The notes: generated by a model from the sequence alone, not told the origin. 64,000 nucleotides of DNA from Pseudomonadota bacterium (GCA_003576805.1 QEVM01000002.1:5666-69665), one strand, 5' to 3'; shown: positions 7,913-34,573, numbered from the stretch's first letter. Program-made: numbers and translations.

Positions 7913-9676
<1,764 letters not shown>

Positions 9677-12397: not shown

Positions 12398-13267
12398 TCA
12401 AGCCGCCGTGCGGCGATTCCGCGGGCGGCCGCGCCACGCGAGACCGACGAGGCCGAGCGCGAGCATCGCGAAGGTGTGCGCTTCGGGAACCATCGCGGGG
12501 CGCGGCCCGACGCCGACCCACAGCTCGTCGAGGAAGGCGCCGACGTTGCGGCTCTGGTTGATCGAGTAGCCGCTCGGCACGGTGAGTCCGCTCGATCCCG
12601 AGAAGCGCAGCCAGAAGGTTCCATTCGCGGGGATCGGCGCGAGTCCGTACGTCGCGAAGTCGATCAGCCCGCCGACGCCGCGGATCGAGTTGCCCGGCGC
12701 GTTGCCGTCGACGAAGCCCGCGGTGTTCGACGTGTTGAGCAGCGTGCCCTCGAAGCCGTTGCCGAGGTCGGTCCAGCTCGAGCCGTCGAGCGAGATCCAC
12801 GCCTGCAGTCCCGCCCAGCGCGGCCGCGAGCGCTGCAGCCAGAACTCGACGTCGAACTCGAGATGGAAGGCGGAGAGCGAGGCGCCGGTGTCGTTGCGGA
12901 ACGCGGCGGTCATGTCGCGCGTCGGGTTGCCCGTGCTCGTCGTGTACAGGCCGAGCGCGCGGTCTGCCGCGCCGGCCGCGCCGCCGTTGTACGCGTCGGT
13001 CGCGGGATTCGCGCTCGGCAGCGCGAGGCTCGTGTACTGCTCGCGCGGCGTCGCGCCCTGCAGGTCGAGGCTCCAGTACGAATCGGGCCCGACCGCCTGT
13101 CCCGGTGCGCGCGTGCCGGTGGGGCCCATCGAGTCGAAGCTCTCGTAGAGGCCGCCCGTCGCGGGCACCGAGTAGAAGAGCGCCATCGGCGCCGCTGCGG
13201 CTGGGCGCAGCGGCGCGGCGGCGATGCCGAGGAGGAGAACGACAAGGAGGATGGAATGGCGGCGCAT
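12398..13267 (-). CDS. Secreted PEP-CTERM-anchored protein, function unknown
   Basis: Internal ATG at 13267 gives the signal peptide MRRHSILLVVLLLGIAAAPLRPAAA. C-terminus VPEAHTFAMLALGLVGLAWRGRPRNRR has the PEP-CTERM layout (motif, TM helix, Arg cluster). Confidence 0.7.
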   Translation of the reverse strand: MRRHSILLVVLLLGIAAAPLRPAAAAPMALFYSVPATGGLYESFDSMGPTGTRAPGQAVGPDSYWSLDLQGATPREQYTSLALPSANPATDAYNGGAAGAADRALGLYTTSTGNPTRDMTAAFRNDTGASLSAFHLEFDVEFWLQRSRPRWAGLQAWISLDGSSWTDLGNGFEGTLLNTSNTAGFVDGNAPGNSIRGVGGLIDFATYGLAPIPANGTFWLRFSGSSGLTVPSGYSINQSRNVGAFLDELWVGVGPRPAMVPEAHTFAMLALGLVGLAWRGRPRNRRTAA

Positions 13268-13470: not shown

Positions 13471-14739
13471 ATGCGACGCCCGCCCTTCGTGCTGCTTGTC
13501 TGTGCGCTGCTGTTGCCGACGGCCGCGCGCGCGACCGTGTACACGGTGACGACGACCGCCGACGCGGGGGCCGGCTCGCTGCGCGAGGCGCTCGCCGCCG
13601 CGGACGCGGGCGACGTGATCGAGTTCGCGATCCCCGGCGAGGGCGTGCAACAGATCGCGCCGCAGAGCGCGCTGCCTGCGGTCGCCGCGGGCGTCACGAT
13701 CGACGCGACCACGCAGCCGGGCGCGAGCTGCGAGGCGTGGCCGCCGACGCTGCGGGTCGAGCTCTCCGGCGCGCAGGCGCCGGCGACCACGGACGGGCTC
13801 GTCGTCGCGGGCGACGGCGTCGTGATCGTCGGGCTCGCGATCTCGGGCTGGCCGCGCAACGGCGTCCTGGTGGACGGCGTTTCGGAGACCGTCATCGAGT
13901 GCAACTTCGTCGGCACCGACGCCGCCGGCGCGCAGGCGCAGAGCAACGGCGCCGACGGCATCCGCATCGTGGGCACCGGCGTCAACAACCTCGTGCGCGC
14001 CAACCTGCTCTCGGGCAACACGATCGACGGCATCCGCATCCAGGACGCGGACCGCACCGCCGTATGGGGCAACCGGATCGGCACCGACGCGACCGGCGCG
14101 CAGCCGCTCCCGAACGGCGGCGCCGGCGTCGAGCTGCTCGGCAGCGCGTCGCTCTCGTCGATCGGCTCGCCCACCGAGCCGAACCGCATCGAGGCCAACG
14201 GCGGCGGCGGCATCGTCGTCTCGGGCGCGGGCGCGTTCGGCAACGATCTCCTCTACAACTCGCTCGCGAAGAACGGCAGCGTCGGCATCGACCTCGTCGG
14301 CGCGCTGCTCGAGGACCCGAACGACCCGGGCGACGCCGACGCGGGCCCGAACCGCCTCCAGAACACGCCGGTGGTCTCGTCGGCCGCGTACGACGAGGGC
14401 GCGGGAACGCTGACCGTGACCTATCTCGTCGACACGCAGCTCGCGAACGCGGCCTATCCGCTCCTCGTGGCGGTGTACGGCGCGGACCTCGATCAGGAGG
14501 AGGGCGAGGTGCTGCTGGGCACGGTCACGTACACGGCGACGGACTTCGCGGCGGGCTCGGTGGCGAAGAGCTTCGTGCCGCAAGCCGCCGTCGCGATCGG
14601 CCAGTGGCTGGTGGCCGCGGCGCGCGACGATCTCGGCAACACGTCCGAGTACTCCGAGGCGATCGCCGTGCCCGAGCCCGGCGCGCTGGCGTGCGGCGCG
14701 CTCGCGCTCGCCGCGCTCCGCGCCCGCCGCCGGCGCTGA
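13471..14739 (+). CDS. Secreted parallel beta-helix repeat protein with a CSLREA-type N-terminal motif and a PEP-CTERM anchor
   Basis: ATG at 13471 gives the signal peptide MRRPPFVLLVCALLLPTAARA, followed by TVYTVTTTADAGAGSLREALAAADAGDVIEF. It has repeated NxxxGNxxDGI beta-helix turns and ends VPEPGALACGALALAALRARRRR. Confidence 0.75.
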   Translation: MRRPPFVLLVCALLLPTAARATVYTVTTTADAGAGSLREALAAADAGDVIEFAIPGEGVQQIAPQSALPAVAAGVTIDATTQPGASCEAWPPTLRVELSGAQAPATTDGLVVAGDGVVIVGLAISGWPRNGVLVDGVSETVIECNFVGTDAAGAQAQSNGADGIRIVGTGVNNLVRANLLSGNTIDGIRIQDADRTAVWGNRIGTDATGAQPLPNGGAGVELLGSASLSSIGSPTEPNRIEANGGGGIVVSGAGAFGNDLLYNSLAKNGSVGIDLVGALLEDPNDPGDADAGPNRLQNTPVVSSAAYDEGAGTLTVTYLVDTQLANAAYPLLVAVYGADLDQEEGEVLLGTVTYTATDFAAGSVAKSFVPQAAVAIGQWLVAAARDDLGNTSEYSEAIAVPEPGALACGALALAALRARRRR

Positions 14740-17040: not shown

Positions 17041-18447
17041 CTACCCGGCGCGGCTCCGCCTCCGCTGCCGCCGTGTGCGGCGCCGCACGAGCACGAGCAG
17101 CGCGGCGAGCTGCGCCGCCGCGCTCGACGGCTCCGGCACCACGCGCAGCGCCGCGATCGCGATCGCCGCGCCGCCGCCGTCGCCGCCGATCTCCTGGAAG
17201 GACCAGAAGCGCGTCGGATCGCTCGGGTCGAGGACGGTCGCGCTGTAGTCGCCGAAGCGCGACACGGAATCGATCTGGATGTCGCCCGTGCCCGCGAGCA
17301 CCGCGATCGGCTCGCCGAACAGCGTCGTGCCGGCGTGCGTCTCGCCGAGCGCTGCGAACGAGGACGGCGGCAGCGACGGACCCGACGCGCTGAAGCCGAT
17401 CACCACGTGGCCGGCCGCGTTGGCGGCGATCGACGGGTACAGGTAGTCGAGCGCGTCGCTCTCGAGCACGCCTTCCTGCCGCACCGCGAGCGTCACGGCG
17501 TCGAGCTCGAGCCAGCGGATCGCCGCGCGTCCCGTGGCGCCCTGCGCGCAGTGCACGGCCCAGATCGCGTCGCCGATCTGCACGGGCGATGCGACGTGAC
17601 CGTCTCCGGTGTCGAGCAGGCCGGCGCCGGTCTGGAGCGCGTCGGGCGGCGTCGGCATCGGCGTGACCGAGAGGAACGGCCCGGCCGTGAGCGTCGGCGC
17701 GCTCGCGCTGCCGCCGATCCGGGTCGTCTGCACCGTGCCGACGAACGCGACGGCGGTCGAGAGCATCCAGCCGGGACGCCCCTCGCCTTCGAGCCGCGTC
17801 ACGGGCTGCGGCGCGAAGCCGGTCGTCGCGAGCGCGGCGCGCTCGAAGAGCGTGGCGCCGTCGATCGAGGGCGGGACGGCGAGCAGGTCCGCCTTCGGCA
17901 CGACCAGCACGTCCACCGAGATCGGGAGACCGCCGGCGACGCCCGCCTGGTGCATGTCGGACGCGATCGTCACCGTGTCGCCGTCGACGCCGATCGTCGG
18001 GAAGTCGGCCCAGGTGGCGTCGGTCGAGTCGCTGTCGAACGCCCAGCCGTCGAAGCCCTCGGTCGGGTCGTCGCTGCGCGAGACCGCGAGCAGGATCTCG
18101 TTCGACGTGTAGCGGCCGTTCAGCGCGACGACGAAGAAGCGGCCGCTCGCGGGGTCGTAGATCGCGCGCGGGTCGAAGGTGTCGTACGTCGCGACGCCCG
18201 CGTCGCTCCAGAACTCCGAGAGCGAGCCGCCTTCGACGTATTCGCCGTCGCTCTTGCGATGGACGTGGATGCCCGCGTTGGTCACCTCGAGCACGTGCGC
18301 GGGGCCGACCGCGCCCATCGTGTCCGGCGGATATCCGCCGCCGGCGCCGCGGAACGCGAGCGCGATCTCGAGCGAAGCCGCGCCGGCGGGCGTCGCCGTC
18401 GCCAGCAGGGCCACGAGCGCGAGCAGGGAAGGGCGCACGGCGCCCAC
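17041..18447 (-). CDS. Secreted PEP-CTERM-anchored protein, function unknown
   Basis: Signal peptide MGAVRPSLLALVALLATATPAGAAS. C-terminus VVPEPSSAAAQLAALLVLVRRRTRRQRRR is PEP-CTERM. Confidence 0.7.
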   Translation of the reverse strand: MGAVRPSLLALVALLATATPAGAASLEIALAFRGAGGGYPPDTMGAVGPAHVLEVTNAGIHVHRKSDGEYVEGGSLSEFWSDAGVATYDTFDPRAIYDPASGRFFVVALNGRYTSNEILLAVSRSDDPTEGFDGWAFDSDSTDATWADFPTIGVDGDTVTIASDMHQAGVAGGLPISVDVLVVPKADLLAVPPSIDGATLFERAALATTGFAPQPVTRLEGEGRPGWMLSTAVAFVGTVQTTRIGGSASAPTLTAGPFLSVTPMPTPPDALQTGAGLLDTGDGHVASPVQIGDAIWAVHCAQGATGRAAIRWLELDAVTLAVRQEGVLESDALDYLYPSIAANAAGHVVIGFSASGPSLPPSSFAALGETHAGTTLFGEPIAVLAGTGDIQIDSVSRFGDYSATVLDPSDPTRFWSFQEIGGDGGGAAIAIAALRVVPEPSSAAAQLAALLVLVRRRTRRQRRRSRAG

Positions 18448-18480: not shown

Positions 18481-20103
18481 TCAGCGCGTTTGCGCGCGGC
18501 CGCCGCCGCCGCCTTCCTCCATGTGGAAGAAGCCGGGATTGCCGCCCGCGAGCAGCGCCTCGCCGAGCACCGGGCGCGCGATCTGGCCGGCCGCGTCGAG
18601 CTGCTCGATGGCGCGGTCGAGATGGCGCGCGAGCGCCTCCATGTACTCGCTGAGCGCCTTGTGCACGATCGCGAACGACACCGCGTCCTTGAACGCGGAC
18701 GGACGCCGCACGAGCGCGGCGCCGAGTAGCTTCAGCGTGAACCACGCGCGCCGCGGGCCGGCGAGCAGCACGGTGTCGCGCAGGATGCGCGCGAGCAGCG
18801 CGAGGTCGCCCCGGCGGATGTTGAGGCCGCGCGTGATCTGGCCGCCCCGGCTCATCAGGAAGTCGAGCGTGCGGCGGTGGTAGTTGCGGAAGTCGTAGAG
18901 CTCGCCGATCAGCTGGCGGTAGCCCGCGTACAGCTCGCGCCGCGTCATGCTCTTCGGCTCGATGTTCGAGAACACGAACTGGTCGCCGAGCGACTCCTCG
19001 ACGAGCCGGCCCTCGCGCGCGACGCGCTCGTGCAGCGGCGTCTTCGGCATCGCCTGCAGCATGCCGGTCATCGACACCGGGATGCGCGCGTCCTGGATGA
19101 AGCGGAGCTGCTCCTCGAAGATGGTCGCGTCGTCGGCGTCGAAGCCGACGATCATCCCCGCCTGCACCTGGATGCCGTAGCCGTGGATCTTGCGGACGCT
19201 CTCCACCAGGTCGCCGCGCGTGTTCTGCGTCTTCTTCGTCTCCTGCAGCGACTCGACGCGCGGGCTCTCGATGCCGATGAAGACGGTCGTGAAGTTGGCG
19301 TCGCGCAGCAGCGCGAGCAGCTCGTCGTCCTGCGCCGCGTTGAGCGACACCTCGGTGTTGAAGTCCATCGGGAAGCCGTTCTCGCGGCCCCAGCGCGCCA
19401 TCTCGCGCAGCAGGTCCTTGGCGAGCTTCTTGTTGCCGATGAAGTTGTCGTCGACGACGAACACCTGCTTCGCGCCGAGCCGGTGGCACTCGGCGATCTC
19501 CGCCATCACCTGGTGCACCTGCTTGGCGCGCGGGCGGCGGCCGTACACGACGATGATGTCGCAGAACTCGCACTGGAAGGGACAGCCGCGCGCGAACTGG
19601 ATCGTCATCGCGTGGTAGCGGTCGACGTGCAGCAGGTCGAAGCGCGGCACCGGCGAGAGCGAGAGGTCGGGCTTCTCGGCGGGGCGGTACTCCGGCTTCC
19701 ACGATCCCGCCGCGAAGTCGCGCAGGAACTGCGGCCAGGTCTCCTCGGCCTCGTCGACGAAGAGCACGTCGCACTGGCCGCGCCACGCCTCGGGGCACAG
19801 CGACGCGTGCGGGCCGCCCACGACGACGAAGCGCCCGCGCCGGCGGAACTCCGCGATGATCTCGCGCATGCGGTCTTCGTGGACGATGTAGCCGGTGACG
19901 CCGACGACGTCGGCGTCCACGTCGAAGTCGATCTCCTCGACGTTCTCGTCGCAGAGCGTGATCTCGTGCTCGCGCGGCGTCATGCCCGCGACCGTCGGCA
20001 TCGAGAGGTTCGGGAAGATGCAGCGCTTGCCGAGGATCGGGAGGATGCGGTCGTAGGTCCAGAAGCTCGGCGGGTTCTTCGGCGTGACGAGATGGATCTT
20101 CAT
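18481..20103 (-). CDS. B12-binding-domain radical SAM protein (class B, DUF4070-type C-terminus)
   Basis: ATG at 20103 gives MKIHLVTPKNPPSFWTY. N-terminal cobalamin-binding-like domain, then the radical SAM cluster motif ARGCPFQCEFCDI (CxxxCxxC). 540 aa. Confidence 0.9.
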   Translation of the reverse strand: MKIHLVTPKNPPSFWTYDRILPILGKRCIFPNLSMPTVAGMTPREHEITLCDENVEEIDFDVDADVVGVTGYIVHEDRMREIIAEFRRRGRFVVVGGPHASLCPEAWRGQCDVLFVDEAEETWPQFLRDFAAGSWKPEYRPAEKPDLSLSPVPRFDLLHVDRYHAMTIQFARGCPFQCEFCDIIVVYGRRPRAKQVHQVMAEIAECHRLGAKQVFVVDDNFIGNKKLAKDLLREMARWGRENGFPMDFNTEVSLNAAQDDELLALLRDANFTTVFIGIESPRVESLQETKKTQNTRGDLVESVRKIHGYGIQVQAGMIVGFDADDATIFEEQLRFIQDARIPVSMTGMLQAMPKTPLHERVAREGRLVEESLGDQFVFSNIEPKSMTRRELYAGYRQLIGELYDFRNYHRRTLDFLMSRGGQITRGLNIRRGDLALLARILRDTVLLAGPRRAWFTLKLLGAALVRRPSAFKDAVSFAIVHKALSEYMEALARHLDRAIEQLDAAGQIARPVLGEALLAGGNPGFFHMEEGGGGGRAQTR

Positions 20104-20316
20104 GCGGCCCTCCGGCGCTGCGTGACGTCCGACGCAGACCCGACGCAGTCCTGCGCGTTCCGTACCAGCATGCGCGAACGGCGCGCCGAACGACTGTGAA
20201 AGTTCGGCAAAACGACTTCCCCGCCGGGCTCGACCCGGCACGGATGCGCGACTCGCGCCTCGCCGCCGCGGCTCGCCGGAAGGGAGTAGAATGCGCGCCG
20301 GCGGAGGAACGACACC

Positions 20317-20784
20317 ATGGATCTGCGAGAGCTCGAGGCGATCAAGCGGCTCAAGTACCAGTACTTGCGATGCCTCGACCAGAAGCGCTGGGAAGAGATC
20401 GCGACCTGCTTCACCGAAGACGCGACCTGCTCCTACAGCGGCGGCAGGTACGCGTTCTCCGGGCGCGCCGCGATCGTCGACTTCCTGCGCAAGGCGATGG
20501 GCGCGCCGAGCTTCCACTCGAGCCACCGCGTGCACCATCCCGAGATCGACTTCACGAGCCCGACCAGCGCCGTCGGGGTGTGGGCGCTCGAGGACGTGGT
20601 GATCGAGACGCGCGCGCAGATCACGATCCGCGGCGCGGCGTGGTACCGCGACGAGTACGTGAAGCAGGACGGCGTCTGGCGGATCCGCTCGACCGGTTAC
20701 GAGCGCACCTACGAGGAGCACGAGTCGCGCAAGGACCGGCCCGGCCTGCGGCTCACGGCGAGCGCCTGGGAGAAGGTCGATTGA
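20317..20784 (+). CDS. NTF2-like / SnoaL_4 (BaiE-like) family protein
   Basis: 155 aa. ELEAIKRLKYQYLRCLDQKRWEEIATCFTEDA...HHPEIDF...GVWRI is the typical SnoaL-like pattern. SD GGAGGA lies 9 bp upstream. Confidence 0.8.
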   Translation: MDLRELEAIKRLKYQYLRCLDQKRWEEIATCFTEDATCSYSGGRYAFSGRAAIVDFLRKAMGAPSFHSSHRVHHPEIDFTSPTSAVGVWALEDVVIETRAQITIRGAAWYRDEYVKQDGVWRIRSTGYERTYEEHESRKDRPGLRLTASAWEKVD

Positions 20785-21509
20785 GCGCCGAAGAGCGCCC
20801 GACGATCTATCCGCACTTCGACGCGACCAAGCTGTCGGGGCAGGGCGCCTGGGAGCAGAAGCGGCGGCTCGCGCGCGCGATGCGGCTCGTGATCGAGCGG
20901 CTGGTCCCGAGCAACGCGCCCGAAGACGAGCTGCGCCGGGCCGCCGGCGCGCTCGAGCGCTACGCCGAGGCGCTGACCGCGCATCCCCGCCTCAAGCACT
21001 TCCACGGCTTCGCGGAGAGCGCCAACGCCGGCGACGTCGGCGCCTTCTTCGACCAGAGCCCGATGATCGGGCTCGCCAACCCGCTCGCGCCGCCGATCAC
21101 GATCGGCCGCGCCGGCCCGCTCTCGGCGATCGCGTCGGTGACGTTCGGCACCGCCTACGAAGGGCCGCCGGGCTGCGTGCACGGCGGCTTCGTCGCGGCC
21201 GCCTTCGACGAGGTGCTCGGCTACGTGCAGTCGCTGGGCGGCAATCCGGGCATGACGGCGCGCCTCACCGTGCACTACCGCAGCCCGACGCCGCTCCACA
21301 CCGAGCTGATCTTCGAGGCGGAGCTGGAGCGCACCGAGGGCCGCAAGATCTTCTGCAAAGGCCGCGTGCGCGCGAACGGCGTGCTCACCGCCGAGGCCGA
21401 GGGCCTGTTCGTGTCGGTCGACCGCACGCGCTTCCAGGCGCTGCTCGAGGAGCGCGAGCGCCGCGAGGAGCGCGCCAAGCAGCGGACGGACGAAGGGAGG
21501 ACGCCGTGA
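20781..21509 (+). CDS. PaaI/hotdog-fold acyl-CoA thioesterase family protein
   Basis: TTG at 20781 overlaps the previous stop (TTGA). Hotdog core YEGPPGCVHGGFVAAAFDEVLGY...LTVHYRSPTPL...GRKIFCKGRV. The start codon is uncertain. Confidence 0.75.
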   Translation: MSAEERPTIYPHFDATKLSGQGAWEQKRRLARAMRLVIERLVPSNAPEDELRRAAGALERYAEALTAHPRLKHFHGFAESANAGDVGAFFDQSPMIGLANPLAPPITIGRAGPLSAIASVTFGTAYEGPPGCVHGGFVAAAFDEVLGYVQSLGGNPGMTARLTVHYRSPTPLHTELIFEAELERTEGRKIFCKGRVRANGVLTAEAEGLFVSVDRTRFQALLEERERREERAKQRTDEGRTP

Positions 21510-23674
21510 GCGAGCCGCGCGAGGTCCGCAGCTTCTGCCGCGTCTGCGAGCCCGCCTGCGGCCTGGTGGCGCGCGTCGAGCACGGCGAGCTCGTCGCGCT
21601 GCGGCCCGACCGCGCGCATCCCGTGACGCGGGGCTTCGCCTGCGACAAGGGCATCGCGGGCGTGGACGTGCACCGCGATCCCGACCGCCTCGACCATCCG
21701 CTGCGCCGCAGCGGGCGCGGCTTCGAGCGCGCGTCGTGGGACGACGCGATCGCGGACGTCGCGGCGCGTGCGCGCGCGATCGTGGACCGCGACGGCCCCG
21801 AAGCGGTCGCGTGGTACATGGGCAATCCGACCGCGTTCAACACGCTCGCGGGCCCGGCCGCCGGCGCGTTCTTCGCCCAGCTCCAGGCAAGCGCGCGAAC
21901 GCGCGCGCGCAGCGAGCCGCAGGCGAGCGAAGCCCATCGGACGTGCCGCGCGTTCTCGTCGGGCACGCAGGACTGCGCCAACAAGTTCGCGGGCAGCGAG
22001 GCGGTGTTCGGCTCCAGCACGGTGCACCCGATCCCCGACCTCGACCACACCGACCTGCTGCTGGTGATCGGCGCGAACCCGCGCGTCTCGCACGCGAGCT
22101 TCCTCTCGATCGCGGACCCGATCGAGAAGCTGCGGGCCGCGAAGCGGCGCGGTGCGCAGATCTGGTTCGTGAACCCGCGCCGCGTGGAGTCGGTGGCGCC
22201 GAGCACCGGCGAGTGGCTGCCGATCCGGCCCGACACCGACGCCTACTTCCTCGCCGCCTTGCTCTGCGAGCTCGAGCGCAGCGGCGGCTTCGACGAGGCC
22301 GCGCTCGCGGCGCACGGCAAGCACGTCGAGGGCCTGCGCGCCGTCGTGCGCCGCTACCCGCCCGAACGCGTCGCCGGCGTGACGGGCGTGCCGGCCGAAC
22401 GCGTGCGCGCGCTCGCGGCGGCCTGGCGCGACGCGGCGCGCGCCGGCGGCGCGTCGGTGCACATGTCGACCGGCGCGAACATGGGCCGGCAGGGCACGCT
22501 CGCGTACTGGCTGGTGCACATGCTCTCGTTCGCGACGGGCCAGCTCGACCGCCGCGGCGGCAACGTGCTCTCGGTCGGCTTCTACAAGAGCGCCAAGGCG
22601 GGCCGCCGCGACTTCGCCGAGAGCTTCGCCGACTCGGAGTTCGGCCGCGTCCGCCGCGGCGCGCTGCCCGGCAATCTGCTGCCGCACTACATCGGCGAGG
22701 CGGAGCGGCCGGTGCGCGCGCTCTTCGTGGTCGCGGGCAATCCGGTGCTCTCGATCGGCGGCGAGGCGAAGCTGCGCGCGGCGCTCGAGCAGCTCGAGCT
22801 GCTGGTGTGCGTGGACCTCTACCGCAACGCGACCGGCGAGTACGCGCACTGGCTGCTGCCCGCGGCCGACATGTACGAGCGCGCCGACGTCAACGTCACC
22901 GGCCTCGGCCTCCAGCACGAGCCGTGGGTGCAGTGGACCGACGCCGTCGTGCCGCCGCGCGGCGAGCGGCGCGAGGAGTGGTGGATCTTCGGGAAGCTGG
23001 CGCAGGCGTGCGGGCTGCGATCGCCCTTCGACGCCGGGCCCGCGCCCGACCTCTGGGGCCGCATCGACCACATGCTGCGCACGCGCGGCACGTCGCTCGA
23101 GGCGGTGCGCGCCGCGCCGCACGGCGTGCGCTTCGCGGACGGCAAGCAGCCGGGCGCGTTCTACGCGGAGCATCTGCAGACGCCCGACCGCAAGGTGGAC
23201 TGTTGCCCCGACGCGTTCGCCGGCGCCTTCGCGCGCTGCGACGCGATCTTCGCCGGGCTCGAAGCCGAAGGCGCCGCGCGGCTCAAGCTGATCACGCGGC
23301 GCGAGCCGTCGATGCACAACTCCTGGTACGCGAACCTGCCGGCGATGAAGCGCGGCGGGCGCGACCGCAACCGGCTCTGGGCGCACCCCGCCGATCTCGC
23401 CGCGCGCGGTCTCGCGGACGGCGCGAAGGCGCGCCTGTGGAACGAGCACGGCGCGCTCGAGGTCGAGGTCGCCGCCGACGACGGGCTCGTGCGCGGCGTC
23501 GTGGCGCTCGCGCACGGCTGGGGCCACGCGCGCGCGCCCGGCATGCGCGTCGCGCAGGCGGCGCCCGGCGTCAATCCGAACGCGCTGCTGCCGGTCGGGC
23601 CGGACAGCTTCGAGCCGCTCTCGAGCCAGGCGTTCATGACGGGCATCCCGGTCGAGATGGCGCCGCTCGGATGA
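21506..23674 (+). CDS. Molybdopterin (bis-MGD) oxidoreductase, cytoplasmic single-subunit type
   Basis: 722 aa, GTG start overlapping the previous stop (GTGA). N-terminal 4Fe-4S motif CRVCEPACG...FACDKG. Also has SSGTQDCANKFAGSEAVFG and a C-terminal molybdopterin dinucleotide-binding domain. No Tat signal. Confidence 0.9.
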   Translation: MSEPREVRSFCRVCEPACGLVARVEHGELVALRPDRAHPVTRGFACDKGIAGVDVHRDPDRLDHPLRRSGRGFERASWDDAIADVAARARAIVDRDGPEAVAWYMGNPTAFNTLAGPAAGAFFAQLQASARTRARSEPQASEAHRTCRAFSSGTQDCANKFAGSEAVFGSSTVHPIPDLDHTDLLLVIGANPRVSHASFLSIADPIEKLRAAKRRGAQIWFVNPRRVESVAPSTGEWLPIRPDTDAYFLAALLCELERSGGFDEAALAAHGKHVEGLRAVVRRYPPERVAGVTGVPAERVRALAAAWRDAARAGGASVHMSTGANMGRQGTLAYWLVHMLSFATGQLDRRGGNVLSVGFYKSAKAGRRDFAESFADSEFGRVRRGALPGNLLPHYIGEAERPVRALFVVAGNPVLSIGGEAKLRAALEQLELLVCVDLYRNATGEYAHWLLPAADMYERADVNVTGLGLQHEPWVQWTDAVVPPRGERREEWWIFGKLAQACGLRSPFDAGPAPDLWGRIDHMLRTRGTSLEAVRAAPHGVRFADGKQPGAFYAEHLQTPDRKVDCCPDAFAGAFARCDAIFAGLEAEGAARLKLITRREPSMHNSWYANLPAMKRGGRDRNRLWAHPADLAARGLADGAKARLWNEHGALEVEVAADDGLVRGVVALAHGWGHARAPGMRVAQAAPGVNPNALLPVGPDSFEPLSSQAFMTGIPVEMAPLG
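21885..21945 (-). repeat. In-frame relic of the 95-bp repeat family inside the molybdoenzyme gene
   Basis: 21911-21929 AGCGAGCCGCAGGCGAGCG is identical to the reverse complement of the repeat core. The flanks are similar but degenerate. It encodes ...RARSEPQASEAH..., while the intergenic copies read RRSEPQASG in the same sense. Confidence 0.7.
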
Positions 23675-25911
23675 GCGAGAAGACGGTGGTCGGCTACGCC
23701 GACCGCTTCTCCGTCGCGCCGGGCGAGAGCGTGCGCTTCTTCGTCAGCACCTACGCGCCCGGGCCGTACCGCGCCGACCTCGTGCGCGTCGTGCGCGGCG
23801 GCGAGATCGCGGGCGGACCTGAGGTGAACGCGGCGCTCGGACTGGGCGTCGAGCTCGAGCCGCTCGACGCGCCGTTCGCCGGCGCGTATCCGGGCCGCAC
23901 CCAGCGCGTCGCGATCGGCTCGTGCGCGACCATTCCGGCGTCGCCCGCGTTCGCGCAGCTCGCGAGCTTCGCGATCGAGGCGCTGGTGTGGCCGACGCGG
24001 CCGCTGCGCGGCGACGCGCAGGCGATCGCGAGCACCTGGTGCGAGGCGACACAGAGCGGCGTCGCCCTGCACCTCGACGCGGCGGGCGCGCTCGCGCTGC
24101 GTTTCGGCGACGGCAGCGGGCGCGTGGAGCGGTTCGCGACGGGTGTTCCGCTCCTCGAGCGCCGCTGGGCGTACGTCGCGGCGCGCTTCGACGCGGCGGC
24201 CGGCGCGCTCGAGCTGGTCTCGGAGCCGTTGCCCGTGGACGCGATCGCGGACCTCGTCGCGCGCGCGGGCCGCGCCAAGCGGCGCGTCGCGCCGGCAGGG
24301 CTCGCGTTCGGCGAAGGGCCGCTGCTGTTCGCGGCGTGGCGCGCCGAGCCGGGGGAGAAGCTCGTCACGGCCGCGCACTTCGACGGCCGCATCGAGGCGC
24401 CGCGCCTGTTCCGCCGCGCGGTCGCGATCGGCCTCGCCGCGTCGCACGCGCGCGGCCCGCGCGACCCGGAGCTCGTCGCCGCGTGGGACTTCGCGCGCGA
24501 CCTCGAGAGCGAGGCGATCCGCGACGCCGGCCCGCAGCGCCTCGACGGCGCGACCGTGAACCTGCCCACGCGCGCCGTGCCGGGCGCGCGCTGGGACGGC
24601 AGCGAGCACGACTGGCGCCGCGCGCCCGCGCACTACGGCGCGATCCACTTCCACGCCGACGACCTCGCCGACGCGGGCTGGGAGTCGGACTTCGCGTTCA
24701 CGGTGCCCGCCGATCTGCCGAGCGGCATCTACGCGGCGCGGCTCCGGCACGGCGCGTCGCAGGACGAGATCCCGTTCTGCGTGCGGCCGCCGCGCGGCGC
24801 GGCGACGGCGCCGCTCGCGTTCCTGGTGCCGAGCGCGTCCTATCTCTCGTACGCCAACGTGAGCCTGCACCTGCGGCCGGGCTCGATCTTCGGCGACCCG
24901 CCGCCGGTGCCGATCGCGAACGACCGCTTCTTCCTCGCGCACCCCGAGTGCGGGCTCTCGCAGTACGACTCGCACGCCGACGGCAGCGGCGTCGTCGTGT
25001 CGTCGCTGCACCGCCCGATCCTGAACCTCAAGGCGGCGGCGAATCCGTGGGGCTTCGCGGCCGACACGCTGATCTCCGCCTGGCTGCGCGCGAGCGGCCA
25101 GCCGTTCGACGTCCTCACCGACGAGGACCTGCACCGCGAGGGCGCCGCGCTGCTCGCGTCGTACCGCGCCGTCGTCACCGGCTCGCACCCCGAGTACTGG
25201 TCCACCGCGATGCTGGACGCGCTCGCGTCGTACCTCGAGCAGGGCGGCCGCTGGATGTACCTCGGCGGCAACGGCTTCTACTGGCGGATCGCGTTCCATC
25301 CGACGCGCCACGGCGTCATCGAGGTGCGCCGCGCCGAGGACGGCACGCGCGCCTGGATCGCCGAGCCCGGCGAGTACCACCACATGTGGGGCGGTGAGTA
25401 CGGCGGCCTGTGGCGGCGGCTCGGGCGGCCGCCGAACCGGCTCGTCGGCGTCGGCTTCGCGGCGCAGGGCGTCGACGCCGGCCGCTTCCGGCGCACGGCG
25501 GCGAGCCGCGATCCGCGCGCGGCGTTCCTGTTCGAGGGCGTCGCGGGCGAGACGATCGAGTCGGGCTCGTTCGTCGGCTCGGCGTCGTTCGAGATCGACC
25601 GCTTCGATCCCGCGCTCGGCTCGCCGCTGCACGCGCTCGTCGTCGCCCGCTCGGAGAACCACGCGCCCGCGATGCTGCGCACCAAGGAGGAGTTCCACGA
25701 GACGAAGGCGTGGGCGCCGGATCCCGCGGTGCGCGCCGACATGGTGTTCTTCGAGACGCCGCGCGGCGGGGCGGTGTTCTCGACCGGCTCGATCTCGTGG
25801 TCGCTCGGCCTGCTCGGCAACGGCGGCGACAACGACGTCGCGCGCGTCACGGGCAACGCGCTGCGCCGCTTCCTCGATCCGCGGCCCTTCGAGGCGCCGC
25901 CGCCGCGCTGA
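23671..25911 (+). CDS. N,N-dimethylformamidase large-subunit-like protein (LamG-like N-domain plus GATase-like C-domain)
   Basis: ATG at 23671 overlaps the previous stop (ATGA). 746 aa and collinear with the DMFase large subunit as I recall it: VVGYADRFSVAPGESVRFFVS, PPRGAATAPLAFLVPSASYLSYAN, VVTGSHPEYWS, GGNGFYWRIAFHP, VFSTGSISWS. Confidence 0.85.
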   Translation: MSEKTVVGYADRFSVAPGESVRFFVSTYAPGPYRADLVRVVRGGEIAGGPEVNAALGLGVELEPLDAPFAGAYPGRTQRVAIGSCATIPASPAFAQLASFAIEALVWPTRPLRGDAQAIASTWCEATQSGVALHLDAAGALALRFGDGSGRVERFATGVPLLERRWAYVAARFDAAAGALELVSEPLPVDAIADLVARAGRAKRRVAPAGLAFGEGPLLFAAWRAEPGEKLVTAAHFDGRIEAPRLFRRAVAIGLAASHARGPRDPELVAAWDFARDLESEAIRDAGPQRLDGATVNLPTRAVPGARWDGSEHDWRRAPAHYGAIHFHADDLADAGWESDFAFTVPADLPSGIYAARLRHGASQDEIPFCVRPPRGAATAPLAFLVPSASYLSYANVSLHLRPGSIFGDPPPVPIANDRFFLAHPECGLSQYDSHADGSGVVVSSLHRPILNLKAAANPWGFAADTLISAWLRASGQPFDVLTDEDLHREGAALLASYRAVVTGSHPEYWSTAMLDALASYLEQGGRWMYLGGNGFYWRIAFHPTRHGVIEVRRAEDGTRAWIAEPGEYHHMWGGEYGGLWRRLGRPPNRLVGVGFAAQGVDAGRFRRTAASRDPRAAFLFEGVAGETIESGSFVGSASFEIDRFDPALGSPLHALVVARSENHAPAMLRTKEEFHETKAWAPDPAVRADMVFFETPRGGAVFSTGSISWSLGLLGNGGDNDVARVTGNALRRFLDPRPFEAPPPR

Positions 25912-25928
25912 AGCGCGGCGAGTGGCGG

Positions 25929-26390
25929 CTACTGGAGGTGGCTGCGCAGCATCCAGGCGTTCTTCTCGTGCGCCTGGATGCGCCGGATGCCGAGGTCGGC
26001 GCTCGCCTCGTCGCCCGCCTTCTGCGCCGCTTCGACCAGCGCGGACGCGGTCTTCGCGACCGTCTCGCTGTCCGAGACGAGGTCGCGGATCATCTCGGTC
26101 GCCTTCGGGACGCGGCGCGCTTCCTTCACCGCGGCGAGGCGCGCGAACTCCGTGTACGAGCCGGGCGCCATCGCGCCGAGCGCGCGGATGCGCTCCGCGA
26201 TCTCGTCCACCGCGAGCGCGAGCTCGGTGTACTGGGTCTCGAACATCGTGTGCAGCGTCGTGAACATCGGACCGGTCACGTTCCAGTGGTAGTTGTGGGT
26301 CTTCAGGTAGAGCGTGTAGCTGTCGGCCAAAAGCTTCGAAGCCGCCTCCACCACCGTCCGATTGCCGTTGCTCGTGCGTCGCTGCGCCAT
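25929..26390 (-). CDS. dps: Dps (DNA-binding ferritin-like protein)
   Basis: ATG at 26390 with SD GGAGGGA. Motifs LKTHNYHWNVTGPMFTTLHTMFETQYTE and DEIAERIRALG are Dps ferroxidase-site motifs. 153 aa. Confidence 0.93.
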   Translation of the reverse strand: MAQRRTSNGNRTVVEAASKLLADSYTLYLKTHNYHWNVTGPMFTTLHTMFETQYTELALAVDEIAERIRALGAMAPGSYTEFARLAAVKEARRVPKATEMIRDLVSDSETVAKTASALVEAAQKAGDEASADLGIRRIQAHEKNAWMLRSHLQ

Positions 26391-26503
26391 CTGACTTCCC
26401 TCCGCGTTCGTTTTCCTCGTCCCGAACCAACCTAGAGCGCCTCGCAGCATCCGTCCAATGGATCGTACGGCTCGCTCTGATCGAGCACGGCTATGCTGCC
26501 GGC

Positions 26504-27403
26504 ATGACGCTGCAGGAGCTGCGGTATCTGGTGGCGCTCGCCGACACCGGGCACTTCGGACGCGCCGCGCGCGCCTGCGCGGTCAGTCAGCCGACGCTGT
26601 CCGCCGCGATCAAGAAGCTCGAGAGCGAGCTCGGCGTGCTGGTGGTCGAGCGCACGCGGCGGCGCGTCGCCATCACCGAGGTCGGCCGCGTGCTGGTCGA
26701 GCAGGCGCGCGTCGTGCTCGACGAGGCGCGCCGCTTCGAGGAGCTCGCGACCCAGGGCCGCGCGCCGCTGGTGGGCGACTTCCGGCTCGGCGTGATCCCG
26801 ACGATCGGACCGTATCTGCTGCCGCACGTCGTGCGCAGCCTGCGCAGCGCGTTCCCCGCGCTGCGCCTGTTGCTGCGCGAGCTGCAGACCGACCCGCTGC
26901 TCGCGGAGCTGCGCGCAGCGCGGCTCGACGCCGGCCTGCTCGCGCTGCCCATCGCGGGCGACGACCTCGAGCGCGCGCCGCTCTACGACGAGCCCTTCGT
27001 GCTCGCGCTGCCGCGCGGCCACCCGCTCGCGAAGAAGGCGCGCGTGCGCACCGACGCGCTCGCCGAGCTGCCGCTGCTGCTGCTCGAGGAAGGGCACTGC
27101 CTGCGCGACCAGGCGCTCGAGGTGTGCGGCCGCGTCTCGTCGCGCGCACGCGAGGAAGTGTCGGGCGCGAGCCTCGAGACGCTGCGCAACATGGTGGCGG
27201 CGGGCGTCGGCGCGACGCTCCTCCCGCAGCTCGCCGCCGCGGGCGCGCAGAGCCGGCGCGACGTCGAGATCGTCGGCCTCGTCCCCGAGCCCACGCGCCG
27301 CGTCGCGCTGCTCGGGCGCAAGGCCTACGCGCGCGTCGAGTCCGCGCAGGCGCTGGCGGCGCACCTGCGCGCGCACCTTCCCGCGTCGGTGTCGCCGTGT
27401 TGA
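26504..27403 (+). CDS. oxyR: LysR-family peroxide sensor OxyR
   Basis: 299 aa. HTH LRYLVALADTGHFGRAARACAVSQPTLSAAIKKLE. Redox cysteines in LEEGHCLRDQALEVCG, then SLETLRNMVAAGVG, nearly collinear with E. coli OxyR. Divergent from dps. Confidence 0.93.
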   Translation: MTLQELRYLVALADTGHFGRAARACAVSQPTLSAAIKKLESELGVLVVERTRRRVAITEVGRVLVEQARVVLDEARRFEELATQGRAPLVGDFRLGVIPTIGPYLLPHVVRSLRSAFPALRLLLRELQTDPLLAELRAARLDAGLLALPIAGDDLERAPLYDEPFVLALPRGHPLAKKARVRTDALAELPLLLLEEGHCLRDQALEVCGRVSSRAREEVSGASLETLRNMVAAGVGATLLPQLAAAGAQSRRDVEIVGLVPEPTRRVALLGRKAYARVESAQALAAHLRAHLPASVSPC

Positions 27404-27407
27404 CCGC

Positions 27408-27896
27408 TCAGAAGCGCAGCAGCTCGGTTTCGAGCGTCGCGAGATCGACGATGCCGACGGCGTTCCAGCCGGGCAGGTGGCCGGCGCACTCGCCGGGATT
27501 GAAGACGAGCCGGCCGTCGCCGCGCCGCTCTTCCACGTGGCGGTGCGTGTGGCCGTGCAGCGCGACGTCGTGGTCGTCCGCGCGGCCGCCGAGGTCGCGC
27601 GGGTCGTGCACGACCACGATGCGGCGTTCGGCGAGGTGGAGCACGAGCGGCGGATCGGCCAGCTCGATCCGCCAGTGCGCCGCCGCCGCCTCGAGCGACG
27701 CGCGCTCGCCGGCGTCGTTGTTGCCGTAGACGCCGGCGAGCGGAGCGTCGAGCCGCGCGAGCAGCTCGAGCGTCGCCGCCTGGGTGATGTCGCCGGTGTG
27801 GATCACGCGATCCACGCCGGCGCGATTGAACAGCTCCACGATGCGCGCGACGTTCGCGAGGTGGTTGTGCGTGTCGGAGACAACGCCGAGCTTCAT
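27408..27896 (-). CDS. Metallophosphoesterase, YfcE/MJ0936 family
   Basis: 162 aa. Motifs VVSDTHN, HTGDI, GNND, GHTH. Confidence 0.85.
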   Translation of the reverse strand: MKLGVVSDTHNHLANVARIVELFNRAGVDRVIHTGDITQAATLELLARLDAPLAGVYGNNDAGERASLEAAAAHWRIELADPPLVLHLAERRIVVVHDPRDLGGRADDHDVALHGHTHRHVEERRGDGRLVFNPGECAGHLPGWNAVGIVDLATLETELLRF

Positions 27897-33606: not shown

Positions 33607-33658
33607 CTTAGCCTCGGCTCGGATAGGCTTGCCGCGGGCGTTCGAAGAGGAGAATGCG

Positions 33659-34147
33659 ATGCCTTCGCTGCACGACTTCCAGGCGCGCGCCATCGGCGGC
33701 GAGGAGCGCTCGCTGCGCGAGTTCGCGGGCAAGGCGGCGCTCGTCGTCAACGTCGCGTCGAAGTGCGGCCTGACGCCGCAGTACGCCGGGCTGCAGAAGC
33801 TCTACGAGACGTACCGCGCGCGCGGCTTCGAGGTGCTCGGCTTCCCGTGCAACCAGTTCGCGGGCCAGGAGCCCGGCAGCGACGCCGAGGTGCAGCAGTT
33901 CTGCGAGCGCAGCTTCGGCGTCGGCTTCCCGCTGTTCTCCAAGATCGACGTCAACGGCCCGCAGCAGCACCCGCTCTACGCGTGGCTGACGTCGCTGGAC
34001 GCGCAGCCGGAGGGCGCGGGCGACGTCAAATGGAACTTCGGGAAGTTCGTGGTCGGGCGCGACGGCGCGGTGGTCGCGCGCTTCGCGCCGCCGACCGCGC
34101 CCGACGATCCCGCGCTCGTCGCCGCGATCGAGAAGGCGCTGGGCTGA
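33659..34147 (+). CDS. gpx: Glutathione peroxidase (Cys type, BtuE-like)
   Basis: ATG at 33659 with SD GAAGAGGAG. Motifs VVNVASKCGLTPQY, LGFPCNQFAGQEPG and WNFGKFVV. Confidence 0.93.
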   Translation: MPSLHDFQARAIGGEERSLREFAGKAALVVNVASKCGLTPQYAGLQKLYETYRARGFEVLGFPCNQFAGQEPGSDAEVQQFCERSFGVGFPLFSKIDVNGPQQHPLYAWLTSLDAQPEGAGDVKWNFGKFVVGRDGAVVARFAPPTAPDDPALVAAIEKALG

Positions 34148-34158
34148 GGCACGCCCGC

Positions 34159-34518
34159 TTGCCCGAAGCGCAGGGAACGGCGCTCTGCCGCGCCGACGAG
34201 ATCGCCGACGGCGCGGCGCGCGGCTTCGCGATCGGGCCGCGCCGGCTGCGCATCTTCGTCGCGCGCCGCGGCGGCGCGCTGTACGCCTACGTGAACCGTT
34301 GCCCGCACGTCGGCACGCCGCTCGACTGGGCGCCCGACGAGTTCTTCGACCGCGAGCGGCGCCATCTCGTGTGCGCGACGCACGGCGCGCTCTTCCGCGT
34401 CGAGGACGGCGAGTGCATCGCCGGCCCGTGCCAGGGCGACCGCCTCGAGCCGTTCCCGATCGCGGTGCGCGACGGCGTCGTCGTCGCCTTCGACGAGCTC
34501 GCCGCCGACTTCGAGTGA
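34159..34518 (+). CDS. Small Rieske [2Fe-2S] domain protein
   Basis: CPHVG...CATHGALF is the CxH...CxxH pattern. The TTG start at 34159 is inferred and uncertain. Confidence 0.75.
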   Translation: MPEAQGTALCRADEIADGAARGFAIGPRRLRIFVARRGGALYAYVNRCPHVGTPLDWAPDEFFDRERRHLVCATHGALFRVEDGECIAGPCQGDRLEPFPIAVRDGVVVAFDELAADFE

Positions 34519-34573
34519 CGCCGCGCGTGAGCTAGGGTCGCCGCTTCCCCTCCATCGTTTTCGAGGAGACGCC

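What the first reader, a model, noticed from the sequence alone, without database searches (positions are those of the whole stretch)
20317..25911. Four-gene translationally coupled operon: NTF2-like, hotdog thioesterase, Mo-oxidoreductase, dimethylformamidase-large-subunit-like
The three junctions are all 4-bp start/stop overlaps: TTGA at 20781, GTGA at 21506 and ATGA at 23671. That argues for co-expression in fixed stoichiometry. The last gene is collinear with the large subunit of N,N-dimethylformamidase, which uses a 2-Tyr-1-carboxylate mononuclear iron site. No small-subunit gene is present. The Mo-enzyme is a signal-less single subunit with one N-terminal 4Fe-4S motif, and no electron-transfer partner is encoded nearby. 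I do not recognise this four-gene combination as a characterised pathway. One hypothesis is that an amide or formamide C-N bond is hydrolysed by the DMFase-like protein. The released formyl, aldehyde or acid product would then be oxidised by the Mo-enzyme. The thioesterase and NTF2-fold protein would handle a CoA-linked or cyclic intermediate.
Basis: partly seen in the sequence, partly recalled or inferred. Interest (0 to 1): 0.66.

Follow-up and report, generated by a model that had tools for sequence, protein, structure and literature searches.

The report
Young mosaic operon, not a pathway
Four tightly packed genes (a SnoaL-like protein, a thioesterase, an orphan molybdenum enzyme and an iron amidase of the dimethylformamidase family) are really there and correctly identified, but comparison with about 170 related loci shows the combination is a recent, lineage-specific juxtaposition rather than a conserved new pathway.

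Summary
Four co-oriented genes at 20317-25911 are coding (GC3 0.94-0.97), joined by TTGA, GTGA and ATGA overlaps, with the stated domains. Gene D is collinear with DMFase and keeps all six residues that DMFase mutagenesis showed essential (Y394, Y432, E508, H506, N534, E641).

- 4-bp overlaps are the commonest junction in this window (13 of 34 same-strand pairs).
- A missing small subunit is normal for the family. D's best structural match is the single-chain N-acetyl-(R)-beta-phenylalanine acylase.
- Only the closest relative (Mo-enzyme 84% identical) shares the A-B-C-D order.
- At 72-79% identity the order is SnoaL-hotdog-DUF4394, often an opposite-strand gene, then the Mo-enzyme, with no D.
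- None of 80 reference-genome loci holding the Mo-enzyme has a DMFase-like gene within 10 kb.
- None of 81 DMFase-family loci has a Mo-enzyme, SnoaL or hotdog neighbour.
- The Mo-enzyme lacks the Cys/Sec-His pair and the RGQNNVQG arginine of formate dehydrogenases, so formate oxidation is unlikely.

Verdict: a recently assembled operon of independently distributed genes. D is probably an active Fe(III) amidohydrolase of unknown substrate. Low interest. The orphan Mo-enzyme clade, with an acetylene-hydratase-like Cys-Glu, is a side lead.

The parts
20104..20316 (.). Divergent intergenic region between the B12-radical-SAM gene (minus strand) and gene A. It presumably holds the operon promoter.
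   Evidence: Gene map and sequence. No sigma-70 consensus or Rfam element was found. The divergent rSAM and SnoaL arrangement is conserved in L001 and L169.
20317..20784 (+). Gene A: SnoaL_4 / NTF2-like protein, 155 aa.
   Evidence: GC3 0.94. Pfam SnoaL_4 at 2.5e-31. GGAGG Shine-Dalgarno sequence upstream. Orthologues at 76-94% identity lie next to B in L001-L005 and L033.
20781..21509 (+). Gene B: THEM4/PaaI-like hotdog acyl-CoA thioesterase with an N-terminal extension of about 120 aa, 242 aa in total.
   Evidence: GC3 0.96. Pfam 4HBT. PDB matches are 2OV9 at 7.5e-24 and THEM4 at 2.8e-14, and the HGG...D motif is present. The family is very conserved, with 7209 hits and hundreds at 73-90% identity. 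It occurs in contexts without the Mo-enzyme.
21506..23674 (+). Gene C: cytoplasmic single-subunit Mo/W-bis-pyranopterin enzyme with an N-terminal 4Fe-4S site, 722 aa. It belongs to an orphan clade.
   Evidence: Three Pfam domains. All NCBIfam equivalogs score far below their cutoffs. C11, C14, E15, C18, C46 and C157 are invariant. There is no His after the ligand Cys, and the Fdh Arg motif is deleted. The profile is equidistant from FdhF, PsrA, FdhH and AH. 407 loci were found in GTDB species genomes, with no conserved neighbour.
21890..21946 (+). In-frame 54-nt (18-aa) lineage-patchy insertion inside gene C, just before the Mo-ligand Cys157.
   Evidence: In the alignment it is present in the window and P0009, and absent from P0002 and the other ten sequences displayed there. 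It is single-copy in the window and has no unusual structure.
23671..25911 (+). Gene D: DMFase-family (DMFA2_C) Fe(III) amidohydrolase, stand-alone large-subunit type, 746 aa.
   Evidence: Pfam at 4.5e-91. PDB matches are 8HUY acylase at 1.2e-134 and 6LVB DMFase at 6e-127, both full length. Y394, Y432, E508, H506, N534 and E641 correspond to DMFase Y399, Y440, E521, H519, N547 and E657 and are invariant in 20 homologues. D has no Shine-Dalgarno sequence of its own. Its codon usage is typical of the window. An orthologue sits after the Mo-enzyme gene only in L005.
25929..26354 (-). Convergent ferritin/Dps-like gene that bounds the operon. In relatives it lies directly after the Mo-enzyme gene.
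   Evidence: Pfam Ferritin at 8.9e-29. It is adjacent to C in L001-L004, L007-L009, L029 and L033.

Best explanation
The segment is a genuine, probably co-transcribed four-gene unit in an uncultured high-GC bacterium of Myxococcota type. It is a young mosaic of genes with independent evolutionary distributions, not a conserved pathway module.

How it arose (inferred). In relatives the layout is a SnoaL_4-thioesterase pair, divergent from a B12-radical-SAM gene, followed by DUF4394. A variable opposite-strand gene often comes next, then a separately distributed stand-alone Mo/W enzyme, with a convergent ferritin-like gene after it. In the window's sub-lineage the DUF4394 gene and the opposite-strand gene were lost, and a DMFase-family gene was appended at the 3' end. 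That produced a compact A-B-C-D string.

What the parts do.
- Gene D is predicted to be a catalytically competent, single-subunit Fe(III) amidohydrolase. By analogy with DMFase, a 2-Tyr-1-Glu iron centre would activate water, E641 would act as base and N534 would stabilise the oxyanion. The substrate would be an N-acyl or N-formyl amine that remains unidentified.
- D has no ribosome-binding site of its own, so its translation probably depends on coupling to C. That fits a gene riding on an existing transcript.
- Gene C is an orphan Cys-ligated Mo/W enzyme that is not a formate dehydrogenase.
- Gene B is an acyl-CoA thioesterase.
- Gene A is an NTF2-fold protein of unknown role.

Shown: gene reality, domains, catalytic residues, synteny pattern. 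Inferred: co-transcription, order of the rearrangements, enzymatic competence, lack of obligate functional coupling.
For: Gene calls and junctions come, and domains.

Synteny series, by identity of the Mo-enzyme to the window's:
- 84% (L005): A-B-C-D, with D 76% identical over the 215 aa present.
- 79% (L004): A-B-DUF4394-C, then convergent ferritin, no D.
- 79% (L173): A-B-DUF4394, an opposite-strand gene, then C. The contig ends after C.
- 75% (P0009 and P0016 contigs): no D.
- 74% (L001-L003): a sulfatase on the opposite strand lies between DUF4394 and C, no D.
- 72% (L033): same pattern.
- 70-71% (L008, L009): no A, B or D.

Broad survey:
- None of 80 GTDB loci, with C at 52-76% identity across Myxococcota, Actinomycetota, Binatota, beta- and gammaproteobacteria, has D within 10 kb.
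- No neighbour is shared by more than 17 of the 80 loci.
- None of 81 DMFA2_C loci (835 kb) has C, A or B nearby.
- D's nearest relatives, at 57-60% identity, lie in unrelated contexts.
- B occurs alone or with A, without C.

Other support:
- D's catalytic residues are conserved and match the DMFase mutagenesis results (PMC7686228).
- 4-bp overlaps are commonplace in this window.
- D lacks a Shine-Dalgarno sequence.
- D's codon usage is native-like.
Against: - The tight packing, with overlaps and no internal terminators or promoters detected, is what a functional operon would also look like.
- The arrangement persisted in two organisms that have diverged to 84% (C) and 76% (D) identity, so it is not a one-off assembly artefact and may be under selection.
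- SnoaL lies directly upstream of a distant C orthologue in L061 (C 56%, A 61% identity). That hints at some real A-C link.
- Most relatives come from short metagenomic contigs, and the sub-lineage that carries D is sampled only twice.
- Lack of conserved synteny cannot prove lack of functional coupling in this lineage.
Confidence: 0.68

Rival explanations
1. D hydrolyses an amide or formamide. C oxidises the released formyl, aldehyde or acid product. B and A process a CoA-linked or cyclic intermediate. This would be a lineage-specific but genuinely integrated catabolic operon.
For: - The genes are tightly packed and co-oriented, with 4-bp overlaps.
- The arrangement is retained in L005.
- D has an intact active site.
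- D lacks its own Shine-Dalgarno sequence, so its expression is tied to C.
Against: - C and D do not co-occur in any of 80 + 81 surveyed loci, nor in relatives at 70-79% identity.
- In most relatives C is separated from A-B by an opposite-strand gene, so A-B and C are not even co-transcribed there.
- C lacks the His and Arg residues of formate dehydrogenases and has no redox partner nearby.
- B is a highly conserved gene found in many unrelated contexts.
Confidence: 0.12
2. A-B-(DUF4394)-C is the real functional module, for example an acyl-CoA-linked substrate transformed by the Mo/W enzyme. D is an unrelated passenger appended to it.
For: - A-B-DUF4394-C is contiguous on one strand in L004.
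- A, B and C lie in the same neighbourhood throughout the clade at 72-84% identity.
- There is an independent SnoaL-to-C adjacency in the distant locus L061.
Against: - Opposite-strand genes of varying identity interrupt the string before C in L001, L033, L173 and the P0009 contig.
- L008 and L009, at 70-71% identity, have C without A or B.
- 77 of 80 broader loci lack A and B next to C.
- The A-B pair occurs without C in L169, and B occurs alone in L167 and L170.
Confidence: 0.15
3. D is a bona fide N,N-dimethylformamidase and the operon is a DMF or methylformamide degradation locus.
For: - NCBI and JGI name the protein N,N-dimethylformamidase.
- It is collinear with 6LVB over its full length and has all catalytic residues.
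Against: - D is slightly closer to the N-acetyl-beta-Phe acylase (454 bits) than to DMFase (428 bits), so it is an orthologue of neither.
- No small-subunit gene is adjacent, and the DMFase large subunit alone is inactive (PMC7686228).
- No dimethylamine or methylamine dehydrogenase genes are nearby.
- The family is large and mostly lacks the small subunit.
Confidence: 0.03

Closest known systems
N-acetyl-(R)-beta-phenylalanine acylase (PDB 8HUY, 8I59, 8I5A)
   Same: It is the best solved relative of gene D (E 1.2e-134, residues 5-740 aligned to 9-752). The three-domain architecture is the same. The Tyr, Tyr and Glu ligand positions and the HPEY motif are conserved. It is deposited as a single molecular species with no small subunit, like D.
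   Different: The two have diverged considerably (454 bits over about 740 aligned residues), so D is not an orthologue. D's substrate is unknown. D's nearest relatives (60% identity) sit beside a class-III aminotransferase and DUF6206, but D itself sits after a Mo-enzyme gene.
N,N-dimethylformamidase large subunit DmfA2 (Paracoccus sp. DMF; PDB 6LVB; PMC7686228)
   Same: D is collinear with it over the full length (E 6e-127). D has all three Fe ligands (Y399, Y440, E521), plus H519, N547 and E657, and also F693 (F675 in D).
   Different: DMFase is alpha2beta2 and needs the 15-kDa small subunit for activity, and no such gene is adjacent here. DMFase is specific for small formamides. D is equally distant from the acylase.
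Formate dehydrogenase catalytic subunits (FdhF of HDCR 7QV7; FdhH 1AA6)
   Same: These are the best-scoring solved relatives of gene C (197 and 164 bits with the family profile). They share the Fe4S4 + Molybdopterin + Molydop_binding architecture and are cytoplasmic.
   Different: C has Cys-Ala instead of Cys/Sec-His at the metal ligand, and a deletion over the RGQNNVQG motif that carries the essential Arg. It scores 192 bits against a 666-bit cutoff for TIGR01591. The public name 'formate dehydrogenase' is probably wrong.
Acetylene hydratase (Syntrophotalea acetylenica; PDB 2E7Z)
   Same: It is a monomeric, partner-less Fe4S4 + bis-MGD enzyme. The family profile aligns ungapped at C9/C12/D13/C16 to C11/C14/E15/C18, and at the W-ligand C141 to C157. 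Asp13 is described as specific to the AH subfamily, and the D13E mutant is active (PMC12096430).
   Different: Overall similarity is no higher than to Fdh or Psr (155 bits, rank 7). AH Trp293 aligns to Leu/Met. The family occurs in organisms I know as typical aerobes, such as Alcanivorax, Ilumatobacteraceae and Burkholderiaceae, whereas AH is an oxygen-sensitive W(IV) enzyme.
THEM4/THEM5 and Rhodococcus 2OV9 hotdog thioesterases
   Same: Gene B aligns with 2OV9 over residues 32-212 (7.5e-24) and with THEM4 over its hotdog domain. The HGG...D motif is present.
   Different: The substrate is unknown. B belongs to a very conserved bacterial clade of about 235-242 aa with its own N-terminal extension.

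Membership tests
DMFase / DMFA2_C family (2-Tyr-1-carboxylate Fe amidohydrolases) | Full-length collinearity with the large subunit (Ig-like, pentraxin-like and ThuA-like domains) | tested here: met
   Residues 4-739 align with 6LVB residues 4-758 at E 6e-127. Pfam DMFA2_C scores 4.5e-91.
DMFase / DMFA2_C family (2-Tyr-1-carboxylate Fe amidohydrolases) | Fe ligands Tyr399, Tyr440 and Glu521 | tested here: met
   They correspond to Y394, Y432 and E508, which are invariant in 20 homologues. The ligand identities come from PMC7686228.
DMFase / DMFA2_C family (2-Tyr-1-carboxylate Fe amidohydrolases) | Catalytic His519, Asn547 and Glu657 (mutants are inactive) | tested here: met
   They correspond to H506, N534 and E641, which are invariant.
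N,N-dimethylformamidase sensu stricto (alpha2beta2 DmfA1/DmfA2) | Small-subunit gene adjacent to the large-subunit gene | tested here: not met
   There is no room for one. C overlaps D's start by 4 bp, and a convergent ferritin gene ends 17 bp after D. The rest of the window was not searched with a small-subunit sequence.
N,N-dimethylformamidase sensu stricto (alpha2beta2 DmfA1/DmfA2) | Hydrolysis of DMF or NMF | not testable with these tools
   This needs an enzyme assay.
N-acetyl-(R)-beta-phenylalanine acylase | Orthology to the Burkholderia enzyme | tested here: inconclusive
   It is the best PDB hit (454 bits) but only marginally better than DMFase (428 bits). No tree was built.
Mo/W-bis-pyranopterin (DMSO reductase) superfamily | Molybdop_Fe4S4, Molybdopterin and Molydop_binding domains, with the CxxCxxxC...C cluster motif | tested here: met
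   for the domains. C11, C14, C18 and C46 are invariant.
Formate dehydrogenase (FdhF/FdhH type) | Sec/Cys ligand followed by His, plus the Arg of the RGQNNVQG motif | tested here: not met
   The motif is C157-Ala, and the query has a 12-residue gap opposite 'plrgqnnvqgac' of 7QV7. TIGR01591 scores 192 bits against a 666-bit cutoff. The roles of the His and Arg are from my own knowledge of FdhH (His141, Arg333).
Acetylene hydratase subfamily | W-ligand Cys141 and an acidic residue (Asp13) after the second cluster Cys | tested here: met
   C157 and E15 align ungapped. The definition of the feature comes from PMC12096430.
Acetylene hydratase subfamily | Closer overall similarity to AH than to other DMSOR subfamilies | tested here: not met
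   AH ranks 7th at 155 bits, behind FdhF (197), PsrA (169) and FdhH (164).
Hotdog 4HBT / PaaI-THEM4 thioesterases | 4HBT domain with the HGG...D catalytic motif | tested here: met
   Pfam 4HBT at 5.8e-8. The sequence VHGGFVAAAFDEV aligns to 2OV9 and THEM4.
Conserved operon / functional gene cluster | The gene order recurs across lineages beyond close relatives | tested here: not met
   The A-B-C-D order occurs only in the window and L005. It is absent from the other close relatives examined (70-79% identity) wherever the side downstream of the Mo-enzyme gene is visible, and from all 80 + 81 surveyed loci.

The most novel reading that the evidence does not exclude
Gene C could found a widespread clade (at least 400 species genomes) of stand-alone, partner-less Mo/W enzymes that carries the acetylene-hydratase hallmark: a ligand Cys plus an invariant acidic residue after the second Fe-S cysteine. 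Such a clade might catalyse new, possibly non-redox, hydration-type chemistry. In this one sub-lineage it would have recruited an Fe(III) amidohydrolase, so that amide hydrolysis by D feeds or follows the Mo/W step as a genuinely new two-metal route.
Probability: 0.08. Interest if true: 0.65.

Novelty: new member of a known kind. Interest (0 to 1): 0.22.

Why it matters
As found, it matters little. The region shows how compact operons with overlapping stop and start codons can arise recently by deletion and 3' appending. It also shows that tight packing alone is poor evidence for a pathway in high-GC genomes.

Two practical points follow.
1. Annotating D as 'N,N-dimethylformamidase' and C as 'formate dehydrogenase' is probably misleading. 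Metagenomic surveys that count such genes as DMF degraders or formate oxidisers will over-call.
2. Both families are large and almost wholly uncharacterised. The stand-alone DMFA2_C amidohydrolases have two characterised substrates. The orphan Cys-Glu Mo/W clade has none. Either would reward biochemical work independently of this operon.

Tried and rejected
- I clustered all ORFs within 5 kb of the Mo-enzyme gene across the loci holding a Mo-enzyme relative, to find a conserved partner such as an electron carrier. Nothing was shared by more than 17 loci, and spurious high-GC ORFs add noise.
- A promoter and terminator scan of 19900-26600 found no promoter-like site. The one terminator-like site lies inside D and is below the chance expectation.
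- An Rfam scan of 19000-27500 for a Moco or other riboswitch found nothing credible.
- Literature searches for a DMFase and molybdopterin link returned no papers. Searches for the acylase structure paper found nothing open-access.
- PF26354, an N-terminal domain in the roughly 860-aa DMFA2_C homologues that might be a fused small subunit, could not be identified because it is not in the Pfam copy.
- The 18-aa insertion in C was checked as a possible repeat or mobile element. It is single-copy and has no unusual fold.
- Recent foreign origin of D was rejected on codon usage, where D ranks second most typical of 34 genes.
- C147 as the Mo ligand, which is how phmmer aligned it, was rejected. It lies inside the lineage-specific insertion, and C157 is the invariant Cys.
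- Structure prediction and fold search were not run. Full-length sequence matches at E below 1e-120 already fix D's fold, and the tools return no residue-level superposition.

Full report
**1. The observation**

The window is 70-77% GC, so raw ORF lists are unreliable. A third-position GC test singles out four co-oriented genes with GC3 of 0.94-0.97:
- A, 20317-20784
- B, 20781-21509
- C, 21506-23674
- D, 23671-25911

The junctions are TTGA, GTGA and ATGA, as reported. Pfam confirms SnoaL_4, 4HBT hotdog, the three Mo-bis-pyranopterin domains including Fe4S4, and DMFA2_C. NCBIfam gives no equivalog for any of the four. C reaches only 192 bits on the formate-dehydrogenase model, whose cutoff is 666.

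The overlaps are not exceptional. Of 34 same-strand adjacent gene pairs in the window, 13 overlap by exactly 4 bp.

**2. Surroundings**

Upstream and divergent lie a B12-binding radical-SAM/DUF4070 gene, a 468-aa protein with no Pfam hit, an amidase and an SDR. Downstream lie a convergent ferritin-like gene (17 bp after D), a LysR regulator, a metallophosphoesterase, an SCP-x-type thiolase with a ChsH2-like OB-fold partner, and a hydrolase-cyclase fusion. No ferredoxin, flavoprotein or cytochrome is nearby. No promoter-like site, credible terminator or Rfam element was found. A, B and C have GGAGG-type ribosome-binding sites, but D has none.

**3. Gene D**

The best solved relatives are N-acetyl-(R)-beta-phenylalanine acylase (8HUY, E 1.2e-134) and the DMFase large subunit (6LVB, E 6e-127). 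Both align over the whole length.

The DMFase paper identifies Y399, Y440 and E521 as the Fe(III) ligands. It shows that the Y440A, E521A, H519A, N547A and E657A mutants are inactive (PMC7686228). From the alignment these residues map to Y394, Y432, E508, H506, N534 and E641. All are invariant in an alignment of D with 19 homologues at 47-60% identity. F693 of the neighbouring subunit maps to F675. So D very probably binds iron and is catalytically competent.

The missing small subunit is not an anomaly. A survey found the large subunit in 924 of 20,762 complete genomes but the small subunit in only 41 genomes or MAGs (bioRxiv 10.1101/2021.03.18.435917). The acylase is deposited as one molecular species. 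D is about equally distant from both characterised enzymes, so its substrate cannot be assigned. Its codon usage is among the most typical in the window.

**4. Gene C**

C has no twin-arginine leader (my reading of the sequence). Its cluster motif is C11-x2-C14-x3-C18...C46.

In an alignment of 25 family members at 64-100% identity, the invariant cysteine at the metal-ligand region is C157, in SGTQDCANKF. C147, which phmmer aligned to the ligand Cys of Fdh and Nap, lies inside an 18-aa insertion that most members lack. The residue after the ligand Cys is Ala, not His. The query also has a 12-residue gap opposite the 'plRGQNNVQGac' motif of FdhF. From my own knowledge, His141 and Arg333 are essential in FdhH, so C is not a formate dehydrogenase, whatever its public name says.

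With the family profile, solved enzymes score FdhF 197, PsrA 169, FdhH 164 and acetylene hydratase 155 bits. This makes C's family a separate, uncharacterised clade.

One feature stands out. The invariant Glu15 aligns ungapped with Asp13 of acetylene hydratase, and C157 aligns with its W-ligand Cys141. A recent review calls Asp13 specific to the AH subfamily and notes that the D13E mutant remains active (PMC12096430). The five Fdh, Psr and Nap sequences aligned have Gly, Ser or Phe at that position. This is a lead only. Overall similarity does not favour AH, and AH Trp293 aligns to Leu/Met.

**5. Genes A and B**

B matches the Rhodococcus hypothetical protein 2OV9 and human THEM4 and THEM5, and it has the HGG...D motif. 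Its family is very large and very conserved, with 7209 hits and hundreds at 73-90% identity. A is a SnoaL_4 NTF2-fold protein.

**6. Synteny: the decisive evidence**

C has hundreds of relatives at 63-84% identity, mostly from Myxococcota MAGs. D's next full-length relative is only 60% identical.

| Mo-enzyme identity to window | Locus | Gene order | Gene D |
|---|---|---|---|
| 84% | L005 | SnoaL (partial), hotdog, Mo-enzyme, DMFase-like | present, 76% identical over the 215 aa before the contig ends, 2-bp spacer |
| 79% | L004 | SnoaL, hotdog, DUF4394, Mo-enzyme, then convergent ferritin and LysR | absent |
| 79% | L173 | SnoaL, hotdog, DUF4394, opposite-strand gene, Mo-enzyme | contig ends, cannot tell |
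| 75% | P0009 and P0016 contigs | similar to L173; no opposite-strand gene in the P0016 contig | absent |
| 74% | L001-L003 | opposite-strand sulfatase before the Mo-enzyme gene | absent |
| 72% | L033 | similar | absent |
| 70-71% | L008, L009 | no SnoaL or hotdog | absent |

A scan of one genome per GTDB species returned 407 loci encoding relatives. In the best 80, at 52-76% identity across several phyla, tblastn found no D homologue within 10 kb. SnoaL plus hotdog occurred only in L033. L061 had SnoaL alone directly upstream, and L010 had a hotdog gene 5 kb away on the other strand. No neighbour was shared by more than 17 loci.

In the reciprocal test, 81 DMFA2_C loci (39-60% identity to D, 835 kb in total) contain no C, A or B homologue. 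D's closest relatives follow a class-III aminotransferase and a DUF6206 gene, or stand alone. B homologues at 77-84% identity occur with the radical-SAM gene and SnoaL but no Mo-enzyme, or in unrelated contexts.

**7. Interpretation**

Each gene has its own distribution, and the compact A-B-C-D string exists only in the window and its nearest sampled relative. The simplest history is loss of DUF4394 and a variable opposite-strand gene, which fused two transcription units, plus the addition of D at the 3' end. Lacking its own ribosome-binding site, D would be translated by coupling to C. Co-expression is therefore likely, but comparative genomics gives no support for an obligatory four-enzyme pathway.

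A sub-lineage-specific functional link cannot be excluded. The arrangement has survived divergence to 84% and 76% identity, and one distant locus repeats the SnoaL-to-Mo-enzyme adjacency.

**8. Novelty and score**

All four proteins belong to known families, and D is a new member of the DMFase and acylase family with an intact iron site. The gene combination is not a described pathway, but it is not conserved either. I rate the finding 'new member of a known kind' with low interest. The most interesting residue is the orphan Mo/W clade with an acetylene-hydratase-like Cys-Glu pair, which I give a low probability of representing new chemistry.

Noticed in passing
window 21890-21946 (inside gene C): This is an in-frame 54-nt (18-aa) insertion, SARTRARSEPQASEAHRTC, about 10 residues before the invariant Mo-ligand Cys157. 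P0009 (75% identity) shares it, but the closest relative P0002 (84%) and the other ten aligned family members displayed lack it. It is single-copy and not unusually structured. It misled phmmer into aligning C147 to the ligand Cys.
   Followed up: partly
window 21506-23674 (gene C) and loci L007-L086: The Mo/W-enzyme clade, with 407 loci in GTDB species genomes, has an invariant Glu right after the second Fe-S cysteine. That is the position of acetylene hydratase Asp13, said to be specific to the AH subfamily. The clade has no conserved neighbour or redox partner. The public name 'formate dehydrogenase' looks wrong, because the His and the RGQNNVQG Arg are absent.
   Followed up: partly
L006 7793-12253; L172 4767-9262: The nearest full-length relatives of gene D (60% identity) sit in a conserved Aminotran_3 - DUF6206 - DMFA2_C string. 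That suggests N-acyl-amine deacylation followed by transamination in that subclade.
   Followed up: no
window 18481-20784; L001 841-4826; L169 1371-3557: A B12-binding radical-SAM/DUF4070 gene lies upstream of, and divergent from, the SnoaL_4-hotdog pair in several genomes. The two are directly adjacent in the window and L169, and separated by two genes in L001. The arrangement occurs with or without the Mo-enzyme gene.
   Followed up: no
window 23646-23673: Gene D has no recognisable Shine-Dalgarno sequence upstream, unlike A, B and C. The same holds in L005, where the junction is TAG-TC-ATG.
   Followed up: partly
window 17041-18447 (-), 12398-13186 (-), 13489-14739 (+): The 468-aa protein has no Pfam hit, a signal-peptide-like N-terminus and a hydrophobic-then-Arg-rich C-terminus. 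It sits near two PEP-CTERM proteins, one of them a beta-helix/NosD-like protein. This may be an exosortase-substrate neighbourhood.
   Followed up: no
P0134-P0137, P0143, P0158 and others (DMFA2_C homologues of about 850-880 aa): A subset of DMFase-family proteins carries an extra N-terminal domain, PF26354, that is absent from the Pfam copy available here. Whether it is a fused small-subunit equivalent is unknown.
   Followed up: partly
window 7941-9676 and 33629-35056: An amtB-glnK pair lies at 7941-9676. A glutathione peroxidase - Rieske - peroxiredoxin trio lies at 33629-35056, and the same trio also appears downstream in the contig carrying relative P0016.
   Followed up: no
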